From: Candidatus Nomurabacteria bacterium
GTDB lineage: Bacteria > Patescibacteriota > Minisyncoccia > Phycocordibacterales > UBA9973
Assembly (NCBI GenBank): GCA_021413905.1
Contig: JAIOPO010000001.1
Coordinates: 201,159 to 265,158 of the forward strand
DNA length: 64,000 nucleotides
Direction of reading: 5' to 3'
Made by a program: the position numbers and the translations under genes
In this document: one piece after another, positions 39,211 through 64,000 of the stretch
Layout: every line of letters starts with the position of its first letter
How positions within the stretch are numbered: position 1 is the first letter of the stretch
Notes under the pieces: generated by a model
What the model was told of the DNA's origin: nothing
What the model saw: the letters and a program-made list of their open reading frames with translations, nothing else
Databases searched by the model: none

Positions 39211-39460
39211 TTAATTATTTGCCATAAGCCATGCATTTAATATTTTACGAGTGTAAGGACCCAAAACACCAGTTCCTTTTTTTAGACCCTGAGGAATAAG
39301 AATTTCTTTTGCATGAGCTTCTTGGAATTTTATTAATTGTTGTTTTGTTTTTTTACCAAAGAAATTATTTTCTTTACCTTTAGAACCAACCCCATTAAGA
39401 GCAATAGTGAAACCGTTATTATTCAAGAAAATTTGAAGTAATTTTACGTCGTTATTTGTA
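39211..39460 (-). other. C-terminal peptidoglycan-binding (PG_binding_1-like) domain of the giant protein
   Basis: DVKLLQIFLNNNGFTIALNGVGSKGKENNFFGKKTKQQLIKFQEAHAKEILIPQGLKKGTGVLGPYTRKIL fits the PG_binding_1 pattern (V..LQ..L...G.....DG.FG..T..A...FQ.....DG..GP.T...L). A poly-Gly linker precedes it at 39605-39650. Confidence 0.6.
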
Positions 39461-51400: not shown

Positions 51401-54400
51401 TTATTACCAACAAAATAATAAGGATTATCATTTACATTTACTCCGTTACAATCATCATTGGGACCTTGATTAGAACAATAGACTTCTGGTGTTGAATCAT
51501 TATAAAAAGTATTAATTGTATTTAATGTTCCAACATAATCACCTACTATATTACCAATATACCCCGCACCAAAATTTGAAAATTGAACAGAAGCAAAAGA
51601 ATTTTGAATATTTATAATTCCTGTTCCTGGGCCAAACCCTTCCCCTTCATAACCGATCAAACCTCCAGCAGTTCCAGAACTAGAAAAACCAGTACCATTT
51701 AAATTTACTTTTGAATAAGAGTTAACAACACTTATTTCTGGATAATTATACCCAACAAGACCTCCGACAATAGCCCAACCTGAAATATTTGTATTTACAT
51801 ATGAATCTATAATCGTAAAAGGAGTATCGTTCGTATTAGAAAAACCAACCAAGCCTCCTGCAAAAAATCCATCAAACATATTTTGAGCAAGACCTGTAGA
51901 ATTAACACTTGAATTTTCTCCACCAAAAAAGTTTTCTCTGAAATCTATATCTACATGAGAACCAGTTGTGTCTAAAAAACCAATAAGTCCACCAGTATTT
52001 GAATTACCAGAGATGACACCATTTGAATAATTATACTTAAATTGATTTGTTAAATCGTAAGAACTATTGTCAAAAAGATAATAATACCCGACAAGACCTC
52101 CAACAGAATTAGAAGTACCTGTCACAGATCCTGCTGTGTAAGAATTATTATTAAATTGAAAATCTAAATTATTATTTCCAAAAATTTCAGCATCAATTTC
52201 TCCTGCAATACCTCCGATATACGAATCACCACTTATATCTCCGGTTACATTATTATTTAATATATAAAAATTAGTAGTATCATTATTGCTATTATTGTTA
52301 ACATAAGAATACCCTATCAAACCTCCAGTATACTGAGAACCTCCTAGAATATCATCATTTGATTCATTGTCATGAATAGTAGTAACTATTACACCAGAAC
52401 CACTATCATCATAAACATCAATCTCACCTAAAAGTCCACCGACAGAAAAAGCACCATTAGAACCATCGATTAATCCATTTTCTATGGTATTAGAAAAAAT
52501 CTCTATATTGATATTACCATTTCCTGTTGAATATCCTTCAACAAAACCTATCAAACCTCCAAGATAATAACTTGAACTAGAAAGTGTAACATCTCCAGTA
52601 ATTGTATTGCCATGAACATCTAAATTTCCAGCATCATAAACATCTGAATAACCAATCAATCCTCCAACTTGAGAACCATCAGCATTTACATCTCCTGAAA
52701 CATTTGAATTTAAAATATTTGATTCAATATCTGTGCTTAAATATCCGACAACGCCTCCAGTACAGTAACTACCATTTACTATTCCAGAAAAAGTCACATC
52801 ACTTATAGTGACATTTGATGCATAACCTGCAACACCTCCAATATTACTATTTCCATTAATTGTTCCGTTAAATTCACCGCCACTGATAGTAGTTCCATAT
52901 GCTACACCCACAAGTCCACCGATATTATTTCCAGAACCAGCTGAAACATCAACAGAAGAATATACATCTGTAATTGTCGCGCCATTAGCAATAGCAGCAA
53001 GAGCACCAATTGTCGAACCATTTATACTTTGAACATTTCCAGCAAGATGTAAATCTTGAATATTAGCAGTATCACTGAGTTCAGAAAAAAGACCGATATT
53101 TGGATCACCCTCACCGTCAAGATTTATAGTAATAGTATAACCATTTCCATCAAGACTTCCTGAAAAAACACCCGAATTTATCATCATTGAATTTCCTTCT
53201 CCTGCACAAGAAAGATTGCCGTCCAAAACAAAACTTTCATCTAAAAGATTATTTATATTTTCAAAATCACTACAACTAGAAATATGAATAACAGGACGAT
53301 CATTTACGGGACCTTCATCATTTAACACATTGTGTAATGTTGGATATTCATTACTAGCAGAATCCCAAATTGGTTCTGAACTAAAATCCCAATGTCCTAA
53401 AAAGGGAAAAACAGATGAAGTGTTTTTAAAATAATCCATTTCAGATCCAATAGAGTTTTTATTTTCACAAGTAGCCAAATCCCCCAAATAAGGATCTCCA
53501 GAATTCGTATTTCCACAAGCCGACTGTGTACTTCTTAAGGTATCCCAAAAAACATTAGAAAGCATAGAGCCAACACTGTCTGATGTTTGATTAATACCAA
53601 ATATTGCTCCATGATAACTACCAGAATTCACACTAGCAACACTAAAACTATTTTGTATAACTGCCCCTGATTGAATAACACCAACAAGACCTCCTGTATT
53701 CGTTTGTTCAGAAAATACTGTCCCTCTTGAATAACTATTTACAACACTAGATAAAGAAACAGTACCGGCAATTCCTCCGACGTTACCAAAATTAGAAATA
53801 ATATTTCCTATATTGTATGAATTTGTAATCTGAGAATTATTTCCCAAACTACCGACAATTCCTCCGACATGACTATCTCCAGTTATATTTGCCTTATTAA
53901 TAACCTGATCAATAATAGAATTATTGGAAAAACCGGTTAAACCTCCAAGACCGGATCCTATATTTTGAACAGAACCAGATATGCTCAATTTAGAAACTGT
54001 AGCATTATGTAAAAAAGAAAACAGACCGGCATTGTCTCCTTCATAGTTTATAGACACATCAATATTATGACCATTTCCATCAAAATTTCCCTGGAAACCA
54101 CCATACATCGATCCTGGATCTATGATTATATTATTATGTTCTCCTGCACATTCCAAATCTCTCATCAAAATAAAATAACTAGAAAGATGAGAATTAATAT
54201 GTTCAAACTGAGCACAAGAATTTATTTGATAAGGATTCCCGGAACTTCCATCACCATCTAAAAATTCAGCATTTGGATCATAATGAAAATTAAAATCTTC
54301 TGTTAGATTACTTCTGACGATAGTTACATATTGATCAGATAAATCATCTAAAAGTGTCCAAGTATTACCATCCATACTACCGTACAATTTCCAACTTATA

Positions 54401-55740
54401 GGATCTCTTCCTATTTCATCGTTTCCTGTTTTAAAACGATAACCATTAAATAAAATTGAATGACCAACACCAGTATCTATGACTACAGTAGAATTCCCCA
54501 ATTGAGGATCTCCTCCGTCATTATCAAAATTTTGATCCAACCATTTACTAGAAGAATCTACTCCGTCAATAATTTTCATTGCTCCTTCTGAATCATTTGG
54601 ATTATTACTACCACCTGGATTAGTAGCTGTAGTTCCTTCTGGCCAAACTGCGACTTCACCATTATACAAAGGAATAAATTCTTTCACTTGAACACAACAA
54701 ACAGCATCTCTTCTTTTTGTAATTTCCCATTTTACATAACGATAATTCGCATTAGTATTAGCTTTACTATATGTAAAATTTACGCTTGTTTCAGTTTGAT
54801 TAGTATTACCATCAATACCTTTTACATATAATGTATGTTCACCTGTTGATGGTTCTGGAATATCATTACCGCAAGAAATGCTAGAATATTCATCTGTATC
54901 AAATTTATAACTGCAAGTAACAGCTGTATCCCAAGAAATAGAAGGATTCCATACTGAAATAGTATCGGAAATCGGTGAATTTATCACAACACTCGGGGCT
55001 AAAGCAACCAATAAAGCCTGACTTTCCAAAGCTTGACTATTTGTACTCAAAGCACGATCATTCAAAATAGTATTAGCACTTGAATATCCAGAAGCAGAGA
55101 CAGTCACAAATGCATCATTATCATCCTCGCTCAAACCAATAGGACAAAGATAATCTCCTGGTGTTGATGATTCCACACAAACAGCCGGGCCAGCATTGAT
55201 ACTAGCACCAGATATTGGATTACTTGTATCAGAATCAGTTACTGTAATTTTATGAGAAAAAAGAAGGGCGTCCGAATTTGTAAAATTCGCAGTATGTGTT
55301 GAACTTGAAGTCCAAGTATCTAATGTGTCTGGATTATCAAAATTAACCAAAAAAAGATTATCCATTTCATGTGTGACATATCCATCGAGACTTACTCTCA
55401 CATCAACATAAGTCCCACTAATACAAGAAGCAGAAGCAGACAAGTAACTTGAAAAAGAAAAAGAGTTAATACTAATATTACCACTAGAAATAACACCGAT
55501 ATTCTGCCAAGTTCCACTATTACAACGAACATCCACTGAAGCATTATCTAAACTTGTGTTATCAAACTCTCTTTGTACAGTGACATACAAACCACCAACA
55601 GGAACAGCGTTGGCTATTTTTATACCGAGTATTGGAATAATAGGTGAAATAGGTGCGACAATAAAACTAAAAATAAACAAACTAAACAAAAAAGTTTTTG
55701 ATATCTTTTTTAATAACTTAAAAAAATGATGTGGTGACAT
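39211..55740 (-). CDS. Giant (5509 aa) multidomain cell-surface protein with N-terminal signal anchor and C-terminal peptidoglycan-binding domain
   Basis: A single uninterrupted ORF of 16,530 nt. The N-terminus is MSPHHFFKLLKKISKTFLFSLFIFSFIVAPI. Domains in order are a discoidin-like domain, seven GLUG-repeat modules (each opening with DPYQISSC.QL.NIN...Y.L..DIDC...GF.PIG...F.G.FDG.GY.I.NL), a LamG domain, Fn3-like domains, a 7-blade propeller, an Asp-box/BNR propeller, a Gly run (GGGGGGGGYGGY) and a PG_binding_1-like C-terminus. Confidence 0.9.
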   Translation of the reverse strand: MSPHHFFKLLKKISKTFLFSLFIFSFIVAPISPIIPILGIKIANAVPVGGLYVTVQREFDNTSLDNASVDVRCNSGTWQNIGVISSGNISINSFSFSSYLSASASCISGTYVDVRVSLDGYVTHEMDNLFLVNFDNPDTLDTWTSSSTHTANFTNSDALLFSHKITVTDSDTSNPISGASINAGPAVCVESSTPGDYLCPIGLSEDDNDAFVTVSASGYSSANTILNDRALSTNSQALESQALLVALAPSVVINSPISDTISVWNPSISWDTAVTCSYKFDTDEYSSISCGNDIPEPSTGEHTLYVKGIDGNTNQTETSVNFTYSKANTNANYRYVKWEITKRRDAVCCVQVKEFIPLYNGEVAVWPEGTTATNPGGSNNPNDSEGAMKIIDGVDSSSKWLDQNFDNDGGDPQLGNSTVVIDTGVGHSILFNGYRFKTGNDEIGRDPISWKLYGSMDGNTWTLLDDLSDQYVTIVRSNLTEDFNFHYDPNAEFLDGDGSSGNPYQINSCAQFEHINSHLSSYFILMRDLECAGEHNNIIIDPGSMYGGFQGNFDGNGHNIDVSINYEGDNAGLFSFLHNATVSKLSISGSVQNIGSGLGGLTGFSNNSIIDQVINKANITGDSHVGGIVGSLGNNSQITNSYNIGNIISNFGNVGGIAGTVSLSSVVNSYSRGTVFSEQTNTGGLVGVIQSGAVIQNSFSVASVNSGSYHGAIFGINQTSDSVGSMLSNVFWDTLRSTQSACGNTNSGDPYLGDLATCENKNSIGSEMDYFKNTSSVFPFLGHWDFSSEPIWDSASNEYPTLHNVLNDEGPVNDRPVIHISSCSDFENINNLLDESFVLDGNLSCAGEGNSMMINSGVFSGSLDGNGYTITINLDGEGDPNIGLFSELSDTANIQDLHLAGNVQSINGSTIGALAAIANGATITDVYSSVDVSAGSGNNIGGLVGVAYGTTISGGEFNGTINGNSNIGGVAGYASNVTISDVTFSGIVNGSYCTGGVVGYLSTDIESNILNSNVSGDVNADGSQVGGLIGYSDVYDAGNLDVHGNTITGDVTLSSSSYYLGGLIGFVEGYSTGNGNINIEIFSNTIENGLIDGSNGAFSVGGLLGEIDVYDDSGSGVIVTTIHDNESNDDILGGSQYTGGLIGYSYVNNNSNNDTTNFYILNNNVTGDISGDSYIGGIAGEIDAEIFGNNNLDFQFNNNSYTAGSVTGTSNSVGGLVGYYYLFDNSSYDLTNQFKYNYSNGVISGNSNTGGLIGFLDTTGSHVDIDFRENFFGGENSSVNSTGLAQNMFDGFFAGGLVGFSNTNDTPFTIIDSYVNTNISGWAIVGGLVGYNYPEISVVNSYSKVNLNGTGFSSSGTAGGLIGYEGEGFGPGTGIINIQNSFASVQFSNFGAGYIGNIVGDYVGTLNTINTFYNDSTPEVYCSNQGPNDDCNGVNVNDNPYYFVGNNANFPLNFFDVDVWSFVAGSFPTLINVSGDDIALFDGGSGTVEDPYQISSCIQLQNINQNQSANYILTDNIDCNSDTHEGGPLYNIGYGFTPIDQFSGIFDGDGYTINDLYINNSSSNNIGLFSYVQQGAIIKNVGLENVDITGADFTGGLAGENYLGKIYNVYVNGNVHGVDVVGGVVGSNNDYSNFIVNSYSGANVTGSSNVGGFVGQNVGQIMNSYATGNVSEIGGDNFTGGFVGYNEYDGVIKNSYATGNVSSEGFFTGGFVGYYASLDILNSFSSGNVDQGLNTDYVGGFAGSGDDYLTGLDYYDQVASGHNYCVGIFGDWAPSCVSVNDIQTYYSNNSVNSPLDKWDFSSAWSTNISGYPTLRQGNLFSGTGSGTDIDPYVVTSCSQFKEINNFALLDSSFLLDADLDCADDGTQIMVGNIIPFTGHFDGNGYSINIDIDNTDGTYHDVGLFVSLNQNALIENLTVTGDILSPYNVGGIVSEINNSAIQDSSSYVNITSTANDGWNPLIGGIAGYTVSSSLSNDNYHGNISVADSVWSVGGLVGYEDEDTTISDGSYSEGDISILSGANVGYAVGGLVGWATYAIIEDSYSNTNISSLSYSNNTGGLVGQSENSSIYRTYATGDIYSIGAYVGGLMGDVIDSEVYDSYSTGTVSCNDVCGGLIGVVANSNVFNSYSSSTIVGISSSFNSHISSFIGQALNASHIEGNFSVGSVTFWNGNEITNTPGVNDTYIGGIVGQENSNLGLNEIINNSYDQINTGVNQCIGDNTPGGQNGSSNSDCNPVNTIETPNENYFKNDNSNAPLNSFNNTNWVFTENYYPTLANLSSDDPNVYYTQGDGSPENPYQINSCTGLQNVNNDLNASYILTQNIDCSDTINWNSGQGFEPLGNDDYLFNGNFNGAGYKIINLFININSSLGVGLFGETNSSAVIENLGVENENITNASSYTGGLVGYNEGTIRNVYTTGRVTSEGTYTGGLVGVNDGLTTIDKSFSNVTVVGAVASGGLIGENHGTISDSYATGSVSGGQYVGGLTGINFYIISSSYATGSVFGNGSTHGGGLTGYLNGEITDSFAVGRVSNFSSLSGGLIGEYVNGALINNFYDQIRTEQSGCSQGSDISGCSAVNTIGNPDTNYFKNNNTNEPLASWDFNDTNIWDTSTSYPLLHGNTISGISFVNPTPENNSSQSSSVAEINMDSSSIGANHYAFTDIDNSLVAFWRFENNANDDTSSSNGIWHGTETYSTGKFGKAANFNGNSYISTTLPSTITGDFTFSSWVYLNNRYAGQSIFSDENGHLIQIGGGGQWQFDEYATFAPADIGAWTHLVAVENNGTETLYVNGEIAASGGASRNIGQTINIGRRTDGVYINGKMDDTLLFSRALNSNEIASLYNAHINQYDYTNEDFSNGSHSFTGYAVNTSGVKSSTEERSFTKASDFDGGDGSEGDPYQISSCPQLQLMNNDLSAHYILVDNIDCSDTLSWNANASEWVDGIVDGELIPDSYSEVTHTDIIVENNGYYGFEPVGNDSTPFLGTFDGDGYTINNLWIFRKDSDNNGVFGKTQNANIHDVNIENSNIVGAQNTGGLVGYMYGGTITDVNLTNNMIRTYLDYHGGGLVGMMEEGASINHIINNNGVVHGSGDIIGGLVGELDSASISNSSSSADVDGGASIGGVVGSANNGEITNTYASGGTVTSNRSEYLLMKTGYAAGGFVGYLYGSNISDSYSTENVNSTGDAAGGFAGVVNYSNLMNDYATGNVTGNQETNEYNTYNPNYVGGFVGAMYSGSNITMSYATGDVTTTGSYVGGFVGNLDGYSVVDNSFSLGSVNGDDYVGGFTGSISNLSLINKVYSKGLVTGNNTENTGGLVGYNSETGNIYNSFWDNENSNQSTSAGGTGEDTSTMKTESTFTDAGWNFDTLWDIDGFTNDGYPFISESASIFNGSGNESDPYQISSCSEFTSMNNSTNSSYILMNDLDCTSLGNGVVIGINREFSGNFDGNGHTITVDINAPSESNAGLFSVVGNGSKIQHLTVNGSVVGQNVVGMVVGANYGQILDVHSSGNVSGDSNVGGLVGFLYSYYVDASDSSANVSAISSNAGGLVGVNSGDISNSHATGDVSVSNTNSSHAGGLVGVNSGDISNSYATGDVTMGANSGYAGGLVGEIDSGDISNSYATGNVNIVDGSNIGGFAGHVQDASIEQSYSTGDVDGNGDGSNQLSYNVGGFVGSTYNATISNVYSKGNVSGNTNVGGLIGQLESNVNLNNAYSIGLVIGVEDYGGLIGLQTNINNTVTNSFWDLNTSNQINGNDGTSKTDAEMKNVDTFTNIESSGISNVWDFINNPVDDENNNDIWDISSMKNQGYPFFVWQSNIPIVETLVPSNTSDNSVNLNAQIVEAGNLEISERGFEWGLTDSYGESWSESSGPYSESIFSKTIYSLSANQTYHYRAFIVNNDGTTFGEDRTFIATNAKWQDVGDQDNFNNYEYNQSLKLNSQNVAYVAYVDSSNGYGVSVKKNNGSDWELVGEPNFSGTQVDYLSMQMYQDIPYVFYVEVNNEYKITVKRFVNDTWENVGDPRFNTGYAYELSSAISANGTPFVAFEDSNYGYKGTVMSFDGNNWNIIGNAGFTDGQIYRNQIATDSNNIPYIIYSDSSHSYSATVKKLVNGDWSTLGNPYFTSNYAWHVSMVLDSNNIPYVTYSDCNQNCSISVMTLDNDTWVNVGDPEFSGTGGVSYNKILVDSNNVIYVGFEDCSNACAATVMKWNGESWIYVGNAGFSTGSIEHFSLALDSNNIPYVAYHDNSLQNKTIVKFLPVISYEYYESDETHGAVSPSNPGTLVSYNGYLKTLTEDQRYLVTDISQSDSGYDSQIFKIHQNLNEINTPTFTINWKGHGAVPDEKNVIVSIWNFNTSEWEQISTEHCAEDCDISGSKTGSDYYDNNDNVWIWVKAENSVSTDLELSLTNTQTLPISWITNNESTTELAYDTISHLNDGWDSYASHTTDDNLVTSHETSPSLIDTTEKSWREVASSYDGQRLFGVVNGGDIWASNNSGLTWNNISASLGVKNWRSVSSNSNGTIIFATVDSGNIYRGVTNNGGATWVWTNLSSVSTDYPGTQDWLKVVSSADGYSISAIIDDYSYIYTAQSNDSGLTWIWTENTSTGLQNWRSIAMDYTGDKIFAVSSYDVENNANGSVWSGVNDGGWTWTDLSQISTGYPNNMSWGDSYISTNENGSKFVVAKEGGYIYTVKSGETWDWTENQDLGTPYWYSVNMSPDGSKIILGENCGQIGVGIYNSQSGIWSWSRKGPNQCFGIGAASNYNGSKLIMSVGSGALWTSNDGGENWLNVTGNAYYYRVRSCDAEGVCKTSPEQTILYGISSSCPFIFTWNGEEYKFIIDASSSGTMGQGLDREQWKSTPFYKAPTYPNPESFVKIPSGYMAPTTNNNGTYYDIKTTFELNEVNYYDQANLEVIDHSSNVNIFPDARQNKQIHTIAKNAQAPIWIKDQNGKDVKSLIAYDDNNYYHTRKEDTSSYLTMKLSNDTVTPANLKIVVKKGKEGLFQGNKQSDALQYKNSSGVFVNVPENMNPSIGKRSGQSVTNRILSNSYGVDTKVIDLSGLTIKDNEIRFVMTNRQIQTDIDWIAVDTSPDEEISKSVLSPYYANLHFRGISNMIPLNANDAHMGDLEIPDYADLISKKGKGNTLTGMATKYGDVKDLLANVDNKFVITTQGDEISLRYEVPVQANGTERDFIYDTWDYHKSFHNALGDTIFPLPFNEMTNYPYHENLEHYPTDTEHNAYQAEYNTREINWGTDESVATPGIHHSLNTDFVNVSVSDSNDSVENPIVTTSSASSVSRSQGTLNGTIVSTGGELASVRGFYWGSTTNYGNTILQNIGSYDEGSFSTVISNLSCGTTYHFKAYAINSSGTGVSDTDRVFSTSACLVASGGGGGGGGYGGYSSTQDTTQKDVKNLEEKINNISSDFKIIKTGLPDGFQFKKNLKQSNTNNDVKLLQIFLNNNGFTIALNGVGSKGKENNFFGKKTKQQLIKFQEAHAKEILIPQGLKKGTGVLGPYTRKILNAWLMANN
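41420..42400 (-). other. BNR/Asp-box beta-propeller domain of the giant protein
   Basis: Five Asp-box motifs are present: SNNSGLTW, TNNGGATW, SNDSGLTW, VNDGGWTW and SNDGGENW (S.D.G.TW). Confidence 0.65.
42960..44030 (-). other. Seven-blade beta-propeller-like repeat domain of the giant protein
   Basis: There are seven repeats of about 48 aa, W..VG...FS.G......LA.DSNN.PYVAY.D......TVMK, running from WQDVGDQDNF to NKTIVKFL. Confidence 0.5.
44960..45150 (-). repeat. Near-perfect 90-bp in-frame tandem duplication inside the giant gene
   Basis: agaatttgaaatatcaccggaattaacaccgaccaaacctccggcat recurs at 45001 and 45091. It encodes two consecutive copies of HAGGLVGVNSGDISNS(H/Y)ATGDV, with a third diverged copy adjacent. 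Confidence 0.75.
47240..47770 (-). other. LamG/concanavalin-A-like lectin domain of the giant protein
   Basis: The segment runs from LVAFWRFENNANDDTSSSNGIWHGT...GDFTFSSWVYLN to LYVNGE and ends DDTLLFSRALNSNEIASLYN, a classic Laminin-G_3 pattern. Confidence 0.7.
54300..54750 (-). other. Discoidin (F5/8 type C)-like carbohydrate-binding domain of the giant protein
   Basis: The segment runs from NYRYVKWEITKRRDAVCCVQVKEFIP to ISWKLYGSMDGNTWTLLDD, a galactose-binding-like fold pattern. Confidence 0.5.
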
Positions 55741-56964: not shown

Positions 56965-57513
56965 TTAATACAATTGTATAGCTTTTCTTTTTTGCTTGTG
57001 GTCAGAGATTTGTTGTGCTACGAGTGCCCAAAACCTTGCTGAATGATTCATCTCTTTTAAATGGCACAGCTCGTGCACGATGATATAGTCTGCGAGTTCC
57101 GCGGGCAAGAAAACTATTTTATAATTAAAATTCAAATTGCCTTTCCCTGAACAGCTTCCCCATCGGGATTTTTGATTTCGTATGTAAACTTTCTTAAAAT
57201 TAAATTTGTAAAAATTATTAAAATGCTCCAGTCGCCCGCTCGCAAGCTCGCGGGCTCTCTCCTTATTCTCACTAAAATCCTTTATCGAACAATGCGCCAA
57301 GATTTTCTGCGGTTTAGCTTTCTGCTCCGCTATTTTACTCTGCACCCAATCCCATTTCTCCCGCATTATTTTCTCCACACTACCCAAACTCACCCGCGCA
57401 CCTTTCGAGACATATACCGCCCCATCCGCCCCCACACTTATCAAAACCTTCCTCCCCCGCACCGTATTTCGCACCCGATAATTAAGTCCGTTTAGATGTT
57501 TGATGGTTGGCAT
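56965..57513 (-). CDS. YgjP-like (DUF45/M48-type) zinc metallopeptidase, last gene of the hsd operon
   Basis: The sequence is WGSCSGKGNLNFNYKIVFLP...IIVHELCHLKEMNHSARFW, with the HExxH motif of YgjP/WLM-like proteins. The product is 182 aa. Confidence 0.75.
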   Translation of the reverse strand: MPTIKHLNGLNYRVRNTVRGRKVLISVGADGAVYVSKGARVSLGSVEKIMREKWDWVQSKIAEQKAKPQKILAHCSIKDFSENKERARELASGRLEHFNNFYKFNFKKVYIRNQKSRWGSCSGKGNLNFNYKIVFLPAELADYIIVHELCHLKEMNHSARFWALVAQQISDHKQKRKAIQLY

Positions 57514-57521
57514 GACTTTAT

Positions 57522-58706
57522 CTACACCAATTCCCCATTAAAAGCTTCACGGAGATATGATTTTTCTAATTTTTTAAAATCTTCAAGTTGTGATTTTTGT
57601 AATTCTACCATTTGACGAATTTTTTCTGAAAGTGTATCCAATCGTTCAACAATTTTCTTCTGTTCTGAGAATGGTGGAATTATGAGTTTTATGTCATCTA
57701 GCATGTATTTAGTTATTTGATTTATCATTGGACCCCCACCAGCACTAAACTGATCAAAAAATAACTTAGACTTAAAGAAATAATAAAGGTAAGCATTATT
57801 TTCACTTCTAATAATTGTCATGAACGTACCGAATGTCATTTTCTCAGTAAGATTTTTAATCATTGCAGTTTTCCCAATTAGTCTTTTACTTCCATTTCTA
57901 CTACACATTAAAATATCTCCGTCTTTCACAAAGAGTTCTTCTTTTATTTTCTTTTCAACTCTAACCAAACTAGATAAATCAATTAAGTCCTTTTGCACAT
58001 TGGAGGATCTTAAAACTATAGTTCCTTTTGAACCAACATCACTAGGAGAGTAAGTTAAACCTATAGAATATTTTGCAATATCTTTTAAAAATACTTCCTC
58101 CCAGCCTTTTTCTTTACCCTCTTCAAAAATTTCACGGAGGGTTTGGGAGAGGATTTTTTCTGTTTCAGCGATTGATTGTTCGCGCAAACTTTTCACCTCC
58201 CGAATCTTTGCAAATTTCTCATCCAAAATCTCCACAATTTTCTTTTGAATTTCAAGTGGTGGAAGTGGGATTTCAATTTCTTTTAATCGTGAACCTGAAA
58301 CCTCTAAAAATGTTGAGCCACTACCTAAAGAATTTAATAACTCTGTATTTGAAAATAAAAAATAATATAAATATTTATTAAATATCTCTGAACCACAAAT
58401 AAAACTACGGCAACCCTGATTTGTTGCCATTGGTACTGTATTTATAACGACATAACCAATCGGTGCGCGAGATGATAATATAACGGACCCAATAGGTAAT
58501 TTTTGAGCTGAAGAATTTTTGAGTCCTGATTCAGAAATTTTTCGTTCAGTTTCAGAAATCTGAAAACTATCAAGTCGTCCAAGATCTTTTGGTGTTACCC
58601 AACACAAATCACCACCCCAATATTTTGAAATACCAGTTTTTGGAGTACCTCCGCCAACGATTTCACAAATCTCACTTAGTTTTTTTATTTGCCAGTTAGT
58701 TTTCAT
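57522..58706 (-). CDS. hsdS: Type I restriction-modification specificity subunit HsdS
   Basis: There are two target-recognition domains with conserved central and C-terminal coiled repeats. The N-terminus is WQIKKLSEICEIVGGGTPKTGISKYWGGDLCWVTPKDL. The product is 394 aa. Confidence 0.85.
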   Translation of the reverse strand: MKTNWQIKKLSEICEIVGGGTPKTGISKYWGGDLCWVTPKDLGRLDSFQISETERKISESGLKNSSAQKLPIGSVILSSRAPIGYVVINTVPMATNQGCRSFICGSEIFNKYLYYFLFSNTELLNSLGSGSTFLEVSGSRLKEIEIPLPPLEIQKKIVEILDEKFAKIREVKSLREQSIAETEKILSQTLREIFEEGKEKGWEEVFLKDIAKYSIGLTYSPSDVGSKGTIVLRSSNVQKDLIDLSSLVRVEKKIKEELFVKDGDILMCSRNGSKRLIGKTAMIKNLTEKMTFGTFMTIIRSENNAYLYYFFKSKLFFDQFSAGGGPMINQITKYMLDDIKLIIPPFSEQKKIVERLDTLSEKIRQMVELQKSQLEDFKKLEKSYLREAFNGELV

Positions 58707-59677
58707 ATTTTTGTGTAATGTTTATCCATTTCCTTATATACTTCTGAAGAGAAAAAGGCTCTTTTAATACCACTCTTTTTTACAGGATCTAAATAACTGA
58801 ATTTACAAAATACATCTTTGCTTTTTATTTCCTCAATAATTTTATTAAATACACTATTTTGCTTAAAATCACTATATCTATTTTTTAAAGAAGAAACTAA
58901 ATCTTTTTTATTAATTGTATATTTAGTTTTAAATAGACTTTCTTCACTAATAAAAACTGATGCTCCTTTTTTTCCAACCCTGACTGTATTTATTCCAGAT
59001 GACCCTTTTTCAAACTTTGTAACTAAATTTAATGAAAAATTATGTGGGGAGTTTTCAGTATAAGGATTTTTTCTCTCTTTTAATTTAAAATATTTTAGTA
59101 GATTTTTCTCTTGAACTGTTTGTTTGTTCACAGAAAAACTTTCAATTTCGTATGGATGAAAAAAAGAGATTGGCATTAGATAAAAATTATATTTGCTCAT
59201 ATCGTAACTAAACCAATCAGAAGTAAATTCTAGGTAACTTTTTAAAGAAGCTGTGCATATTTCTTGTATTTTTTTTGATAAATATTTATCACTATTATAG
59301 AAATGTATACTATTATCTCTAATTTCAATTATTGCTTCTAAATTATCTTTTACTACTTTTGGTAACTTTAAAAGTTCTATTAGTTTAAATATCTCCAAAG
59401 TATACGGGTTACCGCTCCTATTTTCCTTTGGATAAAACCTTTTAACTGGATCACCTTTCTTCGTCTTTGTTTTGGACTGAACTTGAATACTTGAAACTTT
59501 ATTTTTGTTGTCTTTTAAAACTTTTGCTTTAAGTAATAGTTCCCAAGCATTAACTAGTAATATAGAAAATATTTCTTCTCTATACGCAAAATCTGGCTTA
59601 TTATAAATCTCTATTGCTGAAATAATAGAAGCAACTGATTTGTCAAGTAATTTACTTTGTAAATTTTGTTTTGCCAT
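58703..59677 (-). CDS. HEPN-motif protein embedded in the type I RM operon (candidate RNase/abortive-infection effector)
   Basis: An Rx4HxY motif (IEIRDNSIHFY, Arg120/His125, nt 59302-59328) follows the N-terminal helical region SAIEIYNKPDFAYREEIFSILLVNAWELLLKA. Its start overlaps the hsdS gene's 5' end by 4 nt (ATGA) and its stop is 2 nt from the TIR gene start. The family assignment (DUF3644/DUF4145-like) is from memory, not searched. Confidence 0.5.
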   Translation of the reverse strand: MAKQNLQSKLLDKSVASIISAIEIYNKPDFAYREEIFSILLVNAWELLLKAKVLKDNKNKVSSIQVQSKTKTKKGDPVKRFYPKENRSGNPYTLEIFKLIELLKLPKVVKDNLEAIIEIRDNSIHFYNSDKYLSKKIQEICTASLKSYLEFTSDWFSYDMSKYNFYLMPISFFHPYEIESFSVNKQTVQEKNLLKYFKLKERKNPYTENSPHNFSLNLVTKFEKGSSGINTVRVGKKGASVFISEESLFKTKYTINKKDLVSSLKNRYSDFKQNSVFNKIIEEIKSKDVFCKFSYLDPVKKSGIKRAFFSSEVYKEMDKHYTKI

Positions 59678-59679
59678 GA

Positions 59680-60753
59680 TTATCTTTTAGATTCTAAAAT
59701 TGTTTTTAATTCTAAAATTATCTCATTTATATTATCAGATTTTTTTGCAATTCGATCTGCAAAAGTAAGACTATATTGAGAAATATCCTCACGAGTAATA
59801 TTATGCCAAATTGGTAAAATAACATTCTTACCATTTTTCTCTTTAGAAAAAAGTCCATTTAATTCGTATTCAGTCCATTTTTTCTTTGAAAGAAATGCTT
59901 TCGAAAAAATAACGATTCCGTAGCGGGAATTCTTAAGACCATTATCAATGGTAGGTCTTAAATCATCTCCCCAACCAACAACAAAAGAATCGTACCAAAC
60001 AGAAAAACCTGCATCTTTTAAAGATTGAGCTAAAATATTTACAAAATCTTTATCTTCACTTGCGTGACAAATAAAGACATCAAACTCAGTTAACTTTTTT
60101 TCAGTAAGATTAGAAGACTTTTCAATTACTTGAGAGTTGTTTTTAAATTCTTCTTTTTTAGGAATTCCTAACTGTTTAAAAAAATCTTCATCTTTTGATA
60201 TTTCAATATTTGTTTTTTGTTCTGCCTCCGAGATAGCTTTATCTATATTACTATTATATTGTTCAATTTGCCGATTTAAATACTCAGATTGACTTAATAA
60301 AAATTTGATAACTTTTTCTTTCTCTTGAGTAATAGGGCCCGTTTCATCGGAAAATTTTATCACCTCAAAAACAATATCATTATCAATGATATCAATCTCT
60401 TCAGTTTGAAGAATTCTTGGAGAGGGCGCGCACTTCAAAAGACTCTTATCACCTGAGAATGGTAAATGAAATCTTATAACATCTTTTTTGTAATGTTCTC
60501 CTCGCTCAACCCAGTATGATTGAGGAAAATATTCAGCTGGAATTTCAGCGGATTCAATTGTAAGAGTTATTTGTTCTGGATAGAAAGTTAAGGGTAAGAT
60601 TTTATATTTATCTGAAAGTTTAGAAATATCAGCGCTATTTCCACTTTTTATGATTAAACCAACTTCATCTTGTATTTTTTTTATCTGAGCAGCTAATGTC
60701 GATGAAAAATCATATTCATTAAATGCTCTAAATCCTTGAGTAGTAATTAACAT
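59680..60753 (-). CDS. TIR-domain protein (N-terminal uncharacterised domain plus C-terminal TIR) embedded in the type I RM operon
   Basis: The C-terminal roughly 135 aa (nt 59680-60090) are EFDVFICHASEDKDFV...GFSVWYD...RYGIVIFSKAFLSKKKWTEYELNGL...ILPIWHNITRED. These match the bacterial TIR hallmarks (the DVFISH box, a conserved Glu, and the W.K.EL motif). The N-terminal 220 aa have no recognisable family. Confidence 0.75.
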   Translation of the reverse strand: MLITTQGFRAFNEYDFSSTLAAQIKKIQDEVGLIIKSGNSADISKLSDKYKILPLTFYPEQITLTIESAEIPAEYFPQSYWVERGEHYKKDVIRFHLPFSGDKSLLKCAPSPRILQTEEIDIIDNDIVFEVIKFSDETGPITQEKEKVIKFLLSQSEYLNRQIEQYNSNIDKAISEAEQKTNIEISKDEDFFKQLGIPKKEEFKNNSQVIEKSSNLTEKKLTEFDVFICHASEDKDFVNILAQSLKDAGFSVWYDSFVVGWGDDLRPTIDNGLKNSRYGIVIFSKAFLSKKKWTEYELNGLFSKEKNGKNVILPIWHNITREDISQYSLTFADRIAKKSDNINEIILELKTILESKR

Positions 60754-60759
60754 AATTTA

Positions 60760-60933
60760 TATATTCTTTAAAATCTTTTTAATCTCCTCTTCCTTCCCTA
60801 AAATCCTCTCGACCTTATTTTTTATCTTCGGTTTCTTTAAATCAACCTGAAAAATCTGTCCGGATTTTTCAGGTTTTGTTTTTCTGTATTCAAGAAAAGA
60901 TATTTTATAGAACGGATTTATAATTTTTGCCAT
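60760..60933 (-). pseudogene. Remnant of an HsdM C-terminus (57-codon ORF) downstream of rhuM
   Basis: It encodes ...KVERILGKEEEIKKILKNI*, matching the true HsdM C-terminus LVERILGKEEEIKRIISNL. It contains a 36-bp repeat identical at 35 of 36 positions to the hsdM 3' end. Confidence 0.5.
60779..60814. repeat. 36-bp direct repeat, copy A (matches the hsdM 3' end)
   Basis: ttaatctcctcttccttccctaaaatcctctcgacc differs at one position from copy B at 62018-62052. Together the two copies bracket rhuM. Confidence 0.8.
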
Positions 60934-60944
60934 AAATAATTTAA

Positions 60945-61967
60945 TTATTCCTCTTTATTTTTATCTAAAATCTTTTTGACTTCTTTTTCAAAATCAGACT
61001 CTATTTTTTGATATTTATTAAATTCTTTATATTCATCTAGGGCTTTTTCTTTTGCTTGTTCTGCAGAAATACGTCCTTTGCCGTCTAGAATCTTGTACTC
61101 ATTGAAAGTTAAAAACTTATTTACACTCTCTGCAAATTCAGCCATAGTAAATGTTTCCTTTCGTTCAATAATACCTTCAATGTAATCAAAAAAACTGCTC
61201 ACGCTACGCTCGAGACTTTTGATTTGATCTTCTTGTAAATAATTTTTTGCAATTGTGACATCGGATTGCAATATCCTGCCGGGAGAATTTTTCCAAGTTG
61301 TAAGGTTCATATTTGGCTGAGTTGCATCAGCTTTTGTATAAATAATTTCTGCCGCAGTTTGCCCTGTAATAGCATAATGGAATTTATTTTGCACCATTGC
61401 ATAAAAATCTTTTGCTTGTTGTGTGTCCTTTTCATAATCAATGCTACATTCAGCAAAAATATCTGTTATCTGAAGCCAAATGCGTCGCTCGCTGGCACGA
61501 ATAGAACGTACACGCTCCAAAAGTTCACGAAAATAATCGACACCAAAGAATTTTTTACCGTTCTTTAAACGTTCATCGTCTAAAGCAAAACCTTTAATAA
61601 TAAAATCACGCAATATTTGAGTTGCCCAAATACGAAAATCTGTTGCTCTTTTTGAGTTAACACGATACCCAACAGCAATAACTACGTCAAGATTATAATG
61701 CATCGTATCATACTCTTTACCATCAGTAGCAGTTATTCGGAAATTCCTAATAACTGAATCTTCTTTTAATTCAAGGGTTTCAAAGATATTTTTTAAATGT
61801 TCATTTATAGTTGGTATTGACACATCAAAAAGCTCTGCCATTATTTTTTGAGTAAGCCATACCATTTCATCTTCAACGCGGACTTCTACTTGCGGTTTCC
61901 CGGATTCTGCGGTGAAAATCAAAAATTGAGTAGTTGCATTTTTTTGTTTTAACTTGTTATCTTTCAT
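60945..61967 (-). CDS. rhuM: RhuM-family protein (virulence-associated RhuM/Fic-DOC-like), inserted between hsdM and downstream genes
   Basis: NATTQFLIFTAESGKPQVEVRVEDEMVWLTQKIMAELFDVSIPTINEHLKNIF is a typical RhuM N-terminus. The product is 340 aa. This family is a frequent passenger between hsdM and hsdS. Confidence 0.7.
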   Translation of the reverse strand: MKDNKLKQKNATTQFLIFTAESGKPQVEVRVEDEMVWLTQKIMAELFDVSIPTINEHLKNIFETLELKEDSVIRNFRITATDGKEYDTMHYNLDVVIAVGYRVNSKRATDFRIWATQILRDFIIKGFALDDERLKNGKKFFGVDYFRELLERVRSIRASERRIWLQITDIFAECSIDYEKDTQQAKDFYAMVQNKFHYAITGQTAAEIIYTKADATQPNMNLTTWKNSPGRILQSDVTIAKNYLQEDQIKSLERSVSSFFDYIEGIIERKETFTMAEFAESVNKFLTFNEYKILDGKGRISAEQAKEKALDEYKEFNKYQKIESDFEKEVKKILDKNKEE

Positions 61968-61971
61968 ATAA

Positions 61972-63414
61972 TCATTTTAGCATTAAAATCTTATATTTTA
62001 AATTACTAATAATTCTCTTAATCTCCTCTTCCTTTCCTAAAATCCTCTCGACCAATTCTTTCGACCCGAATTCTTCTTCTACCTCAGCACCCTTTGGATT
62101 CTTGAAATCCAAATTAAAATTCTTTGCACGAATATCCGCGATTGAAACCTTCCATGCATTATCACTCGCTTTTTTATTTTTAAACCATTTTATTACTGGT
62201 TCAAACTCCGCATCGGTGATACCTCTATTCTTCGTATATTGTTTCAACCCCGCAGGCAATGGCATCTGATAATACCAAACTTCTTTTGTTGGTTGGCCTT
62301 TTGTAAAAAATACAAGATTCGTATTTACCCCAGCATACGGCTGAAAAACACCTGCTGGCAAGCGGACAATGGTATGTACATTACATTCCTCAAGAAGCTT
62401 TTCTTTAATACGAGATTTTACACCTTCGCCAAAAAGAGAACCATCAGGTAAAACTATTCCACATTTTCCACCAGGCTTCAAAAGACTCATAAATAATACA
62501 AGGAAAAGATCTGCAGTTTCTTTTGTGCGAAAATCCGCAGGAAAATTTGCCTCTGTGCCGTCTTTGACACTTCCACCGAAAGGAGGATTGGCAATAATAA
62601 TATCTACACGATCTTTTGGACCATAATCACGAAGTGGAGTAGAAAGCATATCACCACGACGAATTTGCTGAGGAATTTCTACGCCGTGCAAAATCATATT
62701 GGTAATAGCAAGCAAATGCGGAAGCGGTTTTAATTCTACTCCACGAATTTGTTGTTGAACTTTAGTTTCATCTTTTTTTGTTTTTACTTCTCCACTACTT
62801 CTGACATACTCAAGTGCACTAATAAGGAATCCTCCAGTACCACATGCAGGGTCAAGAATACTTTCACCTAATTTTGGATCAAGAGTACTGACAATAAAAT
62901 TCGTAAGTGGTCTCGGTGTATAGTACTCACCAGCATTACCTGCATTTTGAAGTCCTTTCAATAAATGTTCATAAATTTCGTTGAAATGATGACGATCGTC
63001 TTTACTATTGAAATCTATTTCATTTATTTTATTTACCACTTGACGAATGAGAGTACCAGACTTCATGTAGTTGTAAGTATCTTCAAAAACTTCTTTAACA
63101 ATAAGACCTCTAGGATCATCATTTTCATTGAATTTCAAACTCTTGAGTTGTTTAAATAGCTTATTGTTTATAAAATCAAGCATTTCGTCACCAGTAATCC
63201 CCTCGGCATTACTAGCCCAATTACGCCAGCGAAGAACTTCAGGAATCGGAGAATGATACTTGAGATCAAGAAGTTCATACTCTTTTTCTTTATCATCAAA
63301 AATCTTCAAAAATAAAAGCCACACGAGCTGTGAAAGTCGCTGTGCGTCGCCGTCTACCCCAGCGTCTTTACGCATGATATCTTGAATATTTTTTATGATT
63401 GATTGAATGGCCAT
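61972..63414 (-). CDS. hsdM: Type I restriction-modification DNA methyltransferase subunit HsdM (N6-adenine)
   Basis: The HsdM N-domain is QRLSQLVWLLFLKIFDD, the AdoMet motif I is LDPACGTGGFL and the catalytic motif IV is IIANPPFGG. The product is 480 aa. Confidence 0.92.
   Translation of the reverse strand: MAIQSIIKNIQDIMRKDAGVDGDAQRLSQLVWLLFLKIFDDKEKEYELLDLKYHSPIPEVLRWRNWASNAEGITGDEMLDFINNKLFKQLKSLKFNENDDPRGLIVKEVFEDTYNYMKSGTLIRQVVNKINEIDFNSKDDRHHFNEIYEHLLKGLQNAGNAGEYYTPRPLTNFIVSTLDPKLGESILDPACGTGGFLISALEYVRSSGEVKTKKDETKVQQQIRGVELKPLPHLLAITNMILHGVEIPQQIRRGDMLSTPLRDYGPKDRVDIIIANPPFGGSVKDGTEANFPADFRTKETADLFLVLFMSLLKPGGKCGIVLPDGSLFGEGVKSRIKEKLLEECNVHTIVRLPAGVFQPYAGVNTNLVFFTKGQPTKEVWYYQMPLPAGLKQYTKNRGITDAEFEPVIKWFKNKKASDNAWKVSIADIRAKNFNLDFKNPKGAEVEEEFGSKELVERILGKEEEIKRIISNLKYKILMLK
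62018..62052. repeat. 36-bp direct repeat, copy B (native hsdM 3' end)
   Basis: ttaatctcctcttcctttcctaaaatcctctcgacc lies in the last codons of hsdM. Confidence 0.8.
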
Positions 63415-63418
63415 AAAT

Positions 63419-64000
63419 TTATACGTACAAAGCTAACTGTATTTGATTAATAATTTCTAAATAATTTTCTCGTCCACCAAAAATGTCATTCACAATTTGT
63501 ATTGGGGTTCCAAAATTTGTAAATGGAGAAACTTGCAAGTCACCAATGTCGTCAATAGCTGTGATACCAGTATCTGCATATTTTTCTAAAAGCGCATCAA
63601 TAACTTCACGTGCCTTGCCTTCATATTTTGCAAAATAATTATTTTTCTTTACATTATTTGCACGTTCTGTTCGAGTTAACGGTTTCTTTCCGTAAGCAAC
63701 ATGACAAATTAAATCAAAAGGATCTAATTCTTTCCCTATTTCTTTTGCTAACTCTTCAAAAAATACACCTCTACTTTTTAACTCTTCAATAATAGCTTCC
63801 TTTTTATCACTCTGTTTCCATGCTTGTAGAAATGAATCGAGTGACGCATACTCACTCAAAATATTTTTCTTAGAATAGTCTTTTAAGGATTCCGTAATGA
63901 GCTTACCGTCTTCACCGATATATTGAACTCGCTCGTTAATAACTTTTATATCCACACCATTTATATATAGTTTTGTTCTAGGTTCGCCAATAGTAATAGG
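63419..64000 (-). CDS. hsdR: Type I restriction enzyme HsdR, C-terminal part only (N-terminus beyond window end)
   Basis: The frame is open to nt 64000. ...[42 protein letters not shown] matches the conserved EcoEI-R C-terminal domain. The stop is 4 nt before the hsdM start. Confidence 0.7.
   Translation of the reverse strand, partial: [193 protein letters not shown]

What the first reader, a model, noticed from the sequence alone, without database searches (positions are those of the whole stretch)
56965..64000. Type I RM defense island with three passenger genes (rhuM, TIR, HEPN) between hsdM and hsdS
The minus-strand order is hsdR (partial), hsdM, rhuM, an hsdM 3' remnant, the TIR-domain gene, the HEPN-motif gene, hsdS and ygjP-like. 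Intergenic gaps are 2-10 nt or overlaps, which fits a single operon. The hsdM-hsdS junction is a known hotspot for latent toxins such as PrrC, which are held in check by the RM complex. Here it carries a TIR protein and an Rx4H protein together. To my knowledge this is not a described named system.
Basis: partly seen in the sequence, partly recalled or inferred. Interest (0 to 1): 0.75.

Follow-up and report, generated by a model that had tools for sequence, protein, structure and literature searches.

The report
Type I restriction operon with three embedded defence genes
A restriction-modification operon in an uncultivated Candidatus Nomurabacteria genome has picked up three separate single-gene defence cassettes (RhuM, a TIR NAD-cleaving enzyme and a HEPN RNase) between its methylase and specificity genes, which is a real but already catalogued kind of arrangement and not a new TIR+HEPN system.

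Summary
On the minus strand the order is hsdR (cut by the window end), hsdM, rhuM, an hsdM 3' remnant, a TIR gene, a DUF3644/HEPN gene, hsdS and a YgjP-like gene. Gaps run from -4 to +11 nt. HMMs support every call.

The proposed new TIR+HEPN system does not hold.
- All three passengers match PADLOC phage-defence candidates: RhuM is PDC-S05, the TIR gene is PDC-S66 with a PDC-S54 N-domain, and DUF3644 is PDC-S19. Those candidates were defined by embedding in Type I RM, BREX or DISARM loci.
- TIR and DUF3644 never co-occur elsewhere. There were no TIR hits in 84 DUF3644 loci and no DUF3644 hits in 91 TIR loci.
- DUF3644 copies 80-89% identical sit in four other Type I RM operons with different hsdM genes and different upstream neighbours.
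- The closest TIR relative follows hsdM directly, without rhuM or DUF3644.
- rhuM is flanked by a 58-nt duplication of the hsdM 3' end, so it arrived later.

Most likely this is a stack of independent, co-transcribed effectors: an AbTir-like NADase with its catalytic Glu conserved, an Rx4H HEPN RNase, and RhuM. Whether they depend on the RM complex is untested. This is a new member of a known kind and of modest interest.

The parts
63419..64000 (-). hsdR, C-terminal part only (EcoAI/EcoEI-type Type I restriction subunit). The reading frame runs off the window end.
   Evidence: Pfam EcoEI_R_C 1.5e-35. PADLOC REase_I 4.5e-67, matching profile positions 625-800 of 807. NCBIfam EcoAI/FtnUII family 2.3e-60. 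No in-frame stop up to base 64000.
61972..63414 (-). hsdM, Type I methyltransferase subunit, 480 aa, intact. Compared with relatives and with the remnant, its C-terminus carries 8 extra codons.
   Evidence: N6_Mtase 9.5e-71 and HsdM_N 4.9e-14. PADLOC MTase_I 3.2e-195. 3'-end alignment.
61996..62053 (-). Copy A of the 58-nt direct repeat, inside the 3' end of the working hsdM.
   Evidence: the repeat finder family D1, 83% identity to 60757-60814.
60945..61967 (-). rhuM, 340 aa, a single-gene defence candidate (PADLOC PDC-S05). It is a later insertion into an older hsdM-TIR junction.
   Evidence: PF13310 1.5e-103. PDC-S05 6.5e-148, full length. It is absent at the orthologous hsdM-TIR junction in L176. 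A PDC-S05 representative cut plating of T7 and T5 about 1000-fold (bioRxiv 10.1101/2024.09.26.614923).
60757..60933 (-). 58-aa ORF that is a relic of an hsdM 3' end, probably not a working gene. Its last 58 nt (60757-60814) are copy B of the direct repeat.
   Evidence: No Pfam or PADLOC family. Nucleotide homology to L176 runs unbroken from 60814 to 59695, that is, hsdM end plus TIR.
60844..60875 (.). Perfect 14-bp hairpin with a 4-nt loop, between rhuM and the hsdM-like repeat. Role unknown; it could be a cassette end or a junction scar.
   Evidence: Terminator-like hit. Unique in the window, 0 expected by chance. It is the only stem kept in the centroid RNA fold.
59680..60753 (-). TIR-domain protein, 357 aa. 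Layout: N-terminal module (aa 1-205, nt 60139-60753), long helix, disordered linker, then an AbTir-like TIR domain (aa 222-354, nt 59692-60090). The predicted catalytic Glu is E297 (nt 59863-59865).
58703..59677 (-). DUF3644 protein, 324 aa. It has an N-terminal HEPN domain with RDNSIH (aa 120-125, nt 59303-59320) and a C-terminal alpha/beta domain (aa ~245-324) that may be winged-helix-like. PADLOC PDC-S19. Its stop overlaps the hsdS start by 4 nt.
57522..58706 (-). hsdS, specificity subunit, 394 aa, with two target-recognition domains.
   Evidence: Methylase_S 5.1e-52 in 2 stretches. PADLOC Specificity_I 4.5e-68.
56965..57513 (-). YgjP-like (DUF45) HExxH metallopeptidase, last gene of the cluster. 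GC is 42.6%, against 25-29% for the TIR and DUF3644 genes.
   Evidence: PF01863 3.1e-37. HELCH motif read. GC. The same trailing gene occurs in the multi-passenger RM locus L141.

Best explanation
This is a chromosomal EcoAI-type (HsdR with an EcoEI_R_C end) Type I restriction-modification operon of a Candidatus Nomurabacteria (Patescibacteria) genome. The gap between hsdM and hsdS has collected three independent single-gene defence cassettes, each packed tightly enough to be read with the RM genes as one transcript.

Inferred history:
1. An older hsdM-TIR junction existed, as still seen in the nearest relative.
2. The DUF3644 gene sits directly upstream of hsdS as an ORF-sized cassette that also occurs in unrelated Type I operons.
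3. rhuM arrived last, by recombination in the last 58 nt of hsdM. That event duplicated this stretch and left a dead hsdM tail.

Inferred function: layered defence.
- The RM enzyme cuts unmodified incoming DNA.
- The passengers are stand-alone effectors that act when infection proceeds.
- The TIR protein is an AbTir-type NAD+ hydrolase or cyclase. Its N-terminal module probably senses a trigger or drives oligomerisation, and it would deplete NAD+ or make a cADPR isomer.
- The DUF3644 protein is a HEPN RNase with an Rx4H active site.
- RhuM is a probable toxin or effector of unknown chemistry.

Shown here: gene content, domain identities, conserved catalytic residues, lack of TIR-DUF3644 linkage, cassette boundaries and the insertion scar.

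Inferred only: co-transcription, enzymatic activities, the triggers, and independence from the RM complex.
For: Organism: proteins identical to the window's are named Candidatus Nomurabacteria on a 274-kb contig. The rest of the window is housekeeping: RRF, ATP synthase, MreB, GatB, LeuRS, MurJ.

Independence of TIR and DUF3644:
- HMM searches found 0 TIR hits in 84 DUF3644 loci and 0 DUF3644 hits in 91 TIR loci.
- Nine TIR orthologue contexts were read. Three follow EcoRI-methylase and GmrSD/HNH directly. A fourth (L090) has a DUF3800 gene between the GmrSD gene and TIR. One follows HTH-Fic. One follows a methylase and a DndB/EVE gene, with no sequence downstream of TIR. Two are solitary. One is hsdR-hsdM-TIR-hsdS with an hsdM only 36% identical to the window's.
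- The closest relative (73% aa) is hsdM-TIR followed by an unknown 171-aa gene.

DUF3644 as a mobile cassette:
- Relatives at 87-89% aa (80-83% nt) lie in three other distinct Type I operons (four contigs; L093 and L094 are the same locus). Their hsdM genes are 68%, 27% and 29% identical to the window's. Their upstream neighbours are a WYL-like 105-aa gene, a DUF4145 gene and a Bro-N gene.
- A fourth, L096 (80% aa), has hsdM directly upstream.
- Homology starts exactly at the ATG and ends about 12 nt past the TGA.
- More distant relatives sit next to Eco57I, N6_Mtase, ResIII, Mrr, MmeI, Type ISP and GmrSD genes.

rhuM as a late insertion: the 58-nt direct repeat and the L176 synteny.

Active sites:

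Stand-alone activity of relatives:
- PDC-S05.
- HEC-08, where mutating the HEPN histidine abolished defence.
- Ishtar.

Another multi-passenger locus exists: L141 has hsdS-hsdM-rhuM-hsdS-trypsin-like-DUF3644-hsdR-YgjP.
Against: - No expression, activity or phage data exist for this organism.
- The promoter and terminator scans say nothing useful in this AT-rich DNA: 34 promoter-like sites against 31 expected. The single-operon claim therefore rests on spacing alone.
- The 4-nt DUF3644/hsdS overlap is seen in the window, L092, L093/L094 and L096. It could mean a functional tie to the RM complex rather than independence.
The negative co-occurrence result on the TIR side therefore rests mainly on nine orthologue contexts.
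- The fold and role of the TIR N-terminal module are unknown.
Confidence: 0.7

Rival explanations
1. RM-guardian model. One or more passengers, most plausibly DUF3644, are latent toxins bound and silenced by the HsdM/HsdS/HsdR complex. They are released when a phage anti-restriction protein disables the enzyme, as PrrC is in EcoprrI.
For: - Tight operon packing.
- The DUF3644 stop overlaps the hsdS start by 4 nt here and in L092, L093/L094 and L096.
- The DUF3644 family is persistently found next to RM genes of several types (PMC3710099).
- The PrrC precedent (PMC12707154).
Against: - DUF3644 lacks the ABC-ATPase domain of PrrC.
- The same 80-89% identical DUF3644 cassette sits with hsdM genes only 27-68% identical to the window's, and the one full hsdS compared (L092) is 37% identical. 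A specific protein-protein lock is therefore hard to keep.
- Relatives also occur away from RM genes, for example on a Methylobacter plasmid.
- TIR orthologues are mostly outside Type I loci.
- HEC-08 and PDC-S05 representatives protected E. coli strains that lack the native partner systems.
Confidence: 0.18
2. Thoeris-like signalling pair. The TIR enzyme makes a cADPR-type signal on infection, and that signal switches on the neighbouring HEPN RNase. This would make TIR+DUF3644 a new two-gene system.
For: - The two genes are adjacent with a 2-nt gap.
- The TIR domain belongs to the AbTir clade, which makes 2'cADPR.
- PADLOC ThsB models hit the TIR domain.
Against: - No co-occurrence in 175 loci.
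- Close relatives of each gene lack the other.
- The DUF3644 protein matches only PF12358 and shows no SLOG, Macro, SAVED or CARF-type ligand-binding domain in Pfam. Its model's C-terminus gave only weak winged-helix-like matches.
- No ThsA-like gene anywhere in the window.
Confidence: 0.04
3. The passengers are decaying hitch-hikers or plain addiction toxins with no defence role, and the locus is a scar-laden recombination hotspot.
For: - A dead hsdM tail and a junction hairpin are present.
- GC content is patchy, from 25% to 43%.
Against: - All three ORFs are full length against their family profiles.
- Catalytic residues are intact and invariant across homologues.
- Related family members have measured anti-phage or anti-plasmid activity.
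Confidence: 0.06

Closest known systems
Defence genes embedded in Type I RM, BREX and DISARM loci ('guilt-by-embedding', PADLOC PDC candidates; Payne et al., bioRxiv 10.1101/2024.01.29.577857)
   Same: - Same architecture: extra genes in the same orientation nested between core RM genes.
- All three passengers hit PDC models. RhuM hits PDC-S05 at 6.5e-148. DUF3644 hits PDC-S19 at 1.6e-105. The TIR gene hits PDC-S66 at 4.3e-60 and PDC-S54 at 7.8e-28.
   Different: - Three different candidates are stacked in one hsdM-hsdS gap, in a Patescibacteria genome.
- The TIR protein joins the PDC-S54 N-terminal module to a PDC-S66-type TIR end, so it fits neither model over its full length.
PrrC anticodon nuclease in the EcoprrI Type IC locus
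   Same: A HEPN-superfamily RNase gene nested in a Type I RM operon, giving a second line of defence behind restriction (PMC12707154; PMC3710099).
   Different: - PrrC has an N-terminal ABC-ATPase domain and is known to be held by EcoprrI and released by T4 Stp.
- The DUF3644 protein has no ATPase domain.
- No RM dependence has been shown for it.
- The DUF3644 cassette sits with very different RM partners.
HEC-08 (Payne et al.) and Ishtar (bioRxiv 10.64898/2026.07.06.735840)
   Same: - Single proteins with an N-terminal DUF3644-type HEPN domain plus a C-terminal domain.
- HEC-08 needs the HEPN histidine for phage defence.
- Ishtar drives loss of plasmid RP4.
   Different: - HEC-08 has zinc-finger-like C-terminal domains. 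The window protein has a single Cys after residue 200 and hits only PDC-S19 models.
- Ishtar's C-terminal domain (five or seven strands, three helices) could not be compared directly, because no sequence was available.
AbTir / PdTIR / TcpB bacterial TIR NADases, and Thoeris ThsB
   Same: - The catalytic Glu and the W/T of the WTxYE motif are present.
- A long helix precedes the TIR domain, as in coiled-coil-TIR proteins.
   Different: - The N-terminal alpha/beta module (aa 1-205) has no Pfam family. It is shared with PDC-S54 proteins that carry other C-terminal domains.
- No ThsA partner is present, so this is not Thoeris.
RhuM family (PF13310) in R-M loci
   Same: - RhuM genes lying between Type I core genes are documented (PMC9881135).
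- They were proposed as toxins in multilevel defence (PMC3710099).
- A PDC-S05 representative is antiviral.
   Different: Here the insertion event itself can be read, from the 58-nt hsdM duplication and a relative that lacks rhuM.

Membership tests
Type I restriction-modification system | HsdR helicase-nuclease, HsdM N6-adenine methyltransferase and HsdS with two target-recognition domains, encoded together. | tested here: met
   HsdR C-terminus: EcoEI_R_C 1.5e-35, REase_I 4.5e-67. HsdM: N6_Mtase 9.5e-71 plus HsdM_N. HsdS: Methylase_S 5.1e-52 in 2 stretches. The N-terminal part of HsdR lies outside the window.
PADLOC PDC-S05 (RhuM single-gene candidate) | Full-length match to a PDC-S05 HMM and a Virulence_RhuM domain. 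| tested here: met
   PDLC04868 6.5e-148 over aa 11-338, matching profile positions 4-334 of 335. PF13310 1.5e-103.
PADLOC PDC-S19 (DUF3644 single-gene candidate) | Full-length match to a PDC-S19 HMM. | tested here: met
   PDLC04954 1.6e-105 over aa 4-323, matching profile positions 3-327 of 330.
HEPN superfamily | Conserved Rx4-6H motif. | tested here: met
   RDNSIH at aa 120-125. R120 and H125 are invariant in 41 sequences.
HEPN superfamily | Four-helix up-and-down HEPN fold. | tested here: met
   [not shown]
HEPN superfamily | Metal-independent RNase activity. | not testable with these tools
   Needs biochemistry.
PADLOC PDC-S66 (TIR single-gene candidate) | Full-length match to the PDC-S66 HMM. 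| tested here: inconclusive
   4.3e-60, but only aa 158-354 match, to profile positions 84-281 of 282. The N-terminal 157 aa instead match PDC-S54.
TIR-domain NADase (AbTir/PdTIR/TcpB clade) | TIR fold with the catalytic glutamate in the alpha-C helix. | tested here: met
   [not shown]
TIR-domain NADase (AbTir/PdTIR/TcpB clade) | NAD+ cleavage or cADPR-isomer production. | not testable with these tools
   Needs an enzyme assay or LC-MS.
Thoeris | ThsB (TIR) together with a ThsA effector (SIR2, Macro or TM domain plus SLOG). | tested here: not met
   ThsB-type models hit the TIR domain. No ThsA model hit among the locus proteins or among 37 other window ORFs.
PrrC/RloC-type RM-embedded anticodon nuclease | N-terminal ABC-ATPase fused to a C-terminal HEPN nuclease. 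| tested here: not met
   The DUF3644 protein shows only PF12358 and no ATPase domain. Its HEPN domain is N-terminal.
HEC-08 | [quoted passage not shown] | tested here: not met
   The HEPN part is shared. The C-terminal 125 aa contain a single Cys (sequence). Only PDC-S19 models hit in PADLOC.
   0 of 84 DUF3644 loci have a TIR hit. 0 of 91 TIR loci have a DUF3644 hit. Contexts agree.

The most novel reading that the evidence does not exclude
The hsdM-hsdS gap of Type I operons in Patescibacteria behaves like a cassette array. Single ORFs are swapped in and out with start-codon-to-stop-codon precision and become translationally coupled to hsdS, by a recombination route not yet described. The 58-nt hsdM-tail duplication and the junction hairpin would be traces of that route. 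In addition, at least the DUF3644 RNase would be a true guardian, switched on when the RM complex is inhibited.
Probability: 0.12. Interest if true: 0.6.

Novelty: new member of a known kind. Interest (0 to 1): 0.25.

Why it matters
- It is a clean, readable example of how defence genes stack inside a restriction operon. The order of arrival can be inferred from a relative that still has the older junction and from a duplication scar.
- It shows that AbTir-type TIR enzymes and DUF3644 HEPN RNases are part of the defence kit of the small-genome, uncultivated Patescibacteria.
- The ORF-exact boundaries of the DUF3644 cassette across unrelated operons raise a small open question about how embedding happens.
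- It does not reveal a new defence system.

Tried and rejected
It returned no close orthologues, so it served only as a negative set for co-occurrence.
3. The supplements of the Payne preprint held no PDC-S identifiers, so embedding rates for these PDCs could not be read.
4. Promoter and terminator scans were uninformative: 34 promoter-like sites against 31.2 expected.
6. The Thoeris-like TIR-to-HEPN signalling idea was considered and dropped, because there is no co-occurrence and no sensor domain.
7. A MADS system was considered because mad2 and mad5 models hit HsdM and HsdS. It was dropped because the Type I models score far higher.
8. My phmmer labelling of RM genes around DUF3644 relatives is a lower bound (14 of 83 loci). 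The Pfam neighbour counts give the better picture.

Full report
**Observation**

- hsdR C-terminus, 63419 to the window edge, with the frame still open at base 64000
- hsdM, 61972-63414
- rhuM, 60945-61967
- a 58-aa ORF, 60757-60933
- a TIR gene, 59680-60753
- a DUF3644 gene, 58703-59677
- hsdS, 57522-58706
- a YgjP-like gene, 56965-57513

Intergenic distances are 4, 4, 11, 3, 2, -4 and 8 nt.

Pfam, PADLOC and NCBIfam support every assignment with strong E-values: EcoEI_R_C 1.5e-35, N6_Mtase 9.5e-71, Virulence_RhuM 1.5e-103, TIR_2 9.7e-19, DUF3644 9e-49, Methylase_S 5.1e-52 and YgjP-like 3.1e-37.

Downstream lies the ribosome-biogenesis GTPase gene ysxC/engB. The rest of the window is housekeeping. 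The locus is therefore a chromosomal insertion in a core region, not a large island.

Proteins identical to the TIR and DUF3644 products are recorded from a 274-kb Candidatus Nomurabacteria contig.

**The HEPN call**

- DUF3644 was classed as a HEPN family that occurs in R-M operons by Anantharaman et al. 2013 (PMC3710099).
- In an alignment of 41 homologues, the motif EIRDNxIHF has R120 and H125 invariant.
- Foldseek found the same proteins, but without significance.
- The C-terminal 80 residues form three helices plus short strands, with weak winged-helix-like matches. This part remains uncertain.

**The TIR call**

- W293/T294/E297 align with AbTir W204/T205/E208. AbTir E208A is inactive and W204 and T205 mutants are impaired.
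- E297 is invariant in 35 homologues.
- The N-terminal 205 residues form a separate alpha/beta module followed by a long helix.
- That module has 335 representatives in the library. It is always N-terminal. It is fused either to TIR or to other C-terminal domains with no Pfam family.
- The roughly 410-aa versions are PADLOC PDC-S54. The window protein is thus a PDC-S54-type N-module joined to a PDC-S66-type TIR end.

**Are TIR and HEPN a pair?**

No.
- Profile HMMs built from the two families found no TIR hit in 84 DUF3644 loci and no DUF3644 hit in 91 TIR loci.
- Nine contexts of full-length TIR orthologues (48-73% identity) were read:
  - three directly after EcoRI-methylase plus GmrSD/HNH
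  - one (L090) after the same pair, but with a DUF3800 gene in between
  - one after HTH-Fic
  - one after a methylase plus a DndB/EVE gene, with no sequence downstream of TIR
  - two solitary
  - one as hsdR-hsdM-TIR-hsdS in a different Type I system, whose hsdM is 36% identical to the window's
- The closest relative (73% aa, 75% nt; L176) follows an hsdM 3' end directly. It is followed by an unknown 171-aa gene, not by DUF3644.
- Conversely, DUF3644 relatives at 87-89% aa (80-83% nt) lie in three other distinct Type I operons (four contigs; L093 and L094 are the same locus). Their hsdM genes are 68%, 27% and 29% identical to the window's. Their upstream neighbours are a WYL-like 105-aa gene, a DUF4145 HEPN gene and a Bro-N gene.
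- In a fourth locus, L096 (80% aa), DUF3644 follows hsdM directly.
- Nucleotide homology among these copies begins exactly at the ATG and stops about 12 nt after the TGA that overlaps the hsdS start.
- More distant family members sit beside Type I, Type IIG/Eco57I, MmeI, Type ISP, Mrr and GmrSD genes. Some lie away from RM genes altogether.

**History of the locus**

- The last 58 nt of the 58-aa ORF repeat the hsdM 3' end at 83% identity.
- The ORF aligns with the HsdM C-terminus.
- The homology between L176 and the window runs unbroken from this relic through the TIR gene (60814..59695). L176's hsdM tail also matches the window's real hsdM end.
- The relic stops where the hsdM genes of L176 and L092 stop. 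The window's working hsdM carries 8 extra codons.
- The simplest reading is an older hsdM-TIR junction into which rhuM was inserted by recombination within the hsdM tail, together with about 130 nt carrying a perfect 14-bp hairpin at 60844-60875. That event duplicated the 58 nt. A single crossover of a circular piece carrying an hsdM tail would give exactly this structure. This step is inference.
- GC content is patchy: DUF3644 25%, TIR 29%, rhuM 33%, hsdM 36.5% and YgjP 43%, against 33% for the window.

**Comparison with what is known**

- Genes nested in Type I RM, BREX, DISARM and Hma systems have been surveyed systematically. The resulting 145 PDC candidates were added to PADLOC (bioRxiv 10.1101/2024.01.29.577857).
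- All three passengers hit PDC models.
- A PDC-S05 (RhuM) representative reduced plating of T7 and T5 about 1000-fold.
- HEC-08, a DUF3644 HEPN protein with a different C-terminus, protects against phage and needs its HEPN histidine.
- Ishtar proteins with DUF4145 or DUF3644 HEPN domains drive plasmid loss.
- RhuM inside R-M loci, and the idea of multilevel defence, date from 2013. RhuM between Type I core genes is also noted in PMC9881135.
- Another metagenomic locus, L141, combines rhuM, a trypsin-like gene, DUF3644 and YgjP within a Type I operon.
- PrrC remains the model for an RM-dependent guardian. However, the DUF3644 protein lacks PrrC's ATPase domain, and its cassette sits with very divergent RM partners.

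**Verdict**

The locus is best read as a Type I operon carrying three independent, already catalogued defence cassettes, not as a new TIR+HEPN system.

What remains open:
- whether any passenger depends on the RM complex
- what the TIR N-terminal module senses
- how ORF-exact embedding is achieved

Interest is modest.

Noticed in passing
window 60844-60875: A perfect 14-bp hairpin (AACCTGAAAAATC-TGTCCG-GATTTTTCAGGTT) lies between rhuM and the hsdM-tail repeat. It is unique in the window. One arm overlaps sequence that still resembles hsdM coding sequence (FQVDLKKPK), so it may be a recombination-junction scar or the end of a cassette.
   Followed up: partly
window 58695-59687; L092 5462-6467; L093 7997-8983; L095 7991-8982: The DUF3644 gene is 80-83% identical at the DNA level in operons whose flanking genes are unrelated or much more divergent (hsdM 27-68% aa identity). 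Homology starts at the ATG and ends about 12 nt after the stop. This is ORF-exact cassette exchange with no visible flanking homology or recombinase.
   Followed up: partly
L093 7313-8975 (also L094): Two different HEPN genes, DUF4145 and DUF3644, sit side by side between hsdM and hsdS. These are the same two HEPN families reported for Ishtar1 and Ishtar2.
   Followed up: no
L141 1877-11671: Another multi-passenger Type I operon: hsdS-hsdM-rhuM-hsdS-trypsin-like-DUF3644-hsdR-YgjP. RhuM, DUF3644 and YgjP therefore recur together in RM loci.
   Followed up: partly
L081 5816-9793; L082 506-3396; L091 435-2900: In three contigs the TIR orthologue follows an EcoRI-like methylase and a GmrSD/HNH gene. 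The next gene, of unknown family, overlaps it by 4 nt. This may be a different recurrent neighbourhood for this TIR family.
   Followed up: no
window 39211-55740: A single 5509-aa ORF on the minus strand with many repeated Gly/Ser-rich modules and a signal-like N-terminus. It is probably a giant surface protein.
   Followed up: no
window 56965-57513: The YgjP-like metallopeptidase gene has 42.6% GC, against 33% for the window and 25-29% for the TIR and DUF3644 genes. This suggests a different origin or different constraints.
   Followed up: no
window 61972-62000: The working hsdM has 8 extra C-terminal codons (KYKILMLK) compared with the relic copy and with the hsdM genes of L176 and L092. The extension lies next to the rhuM junction and may have arisen with the insertion.
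   Followed up: partly
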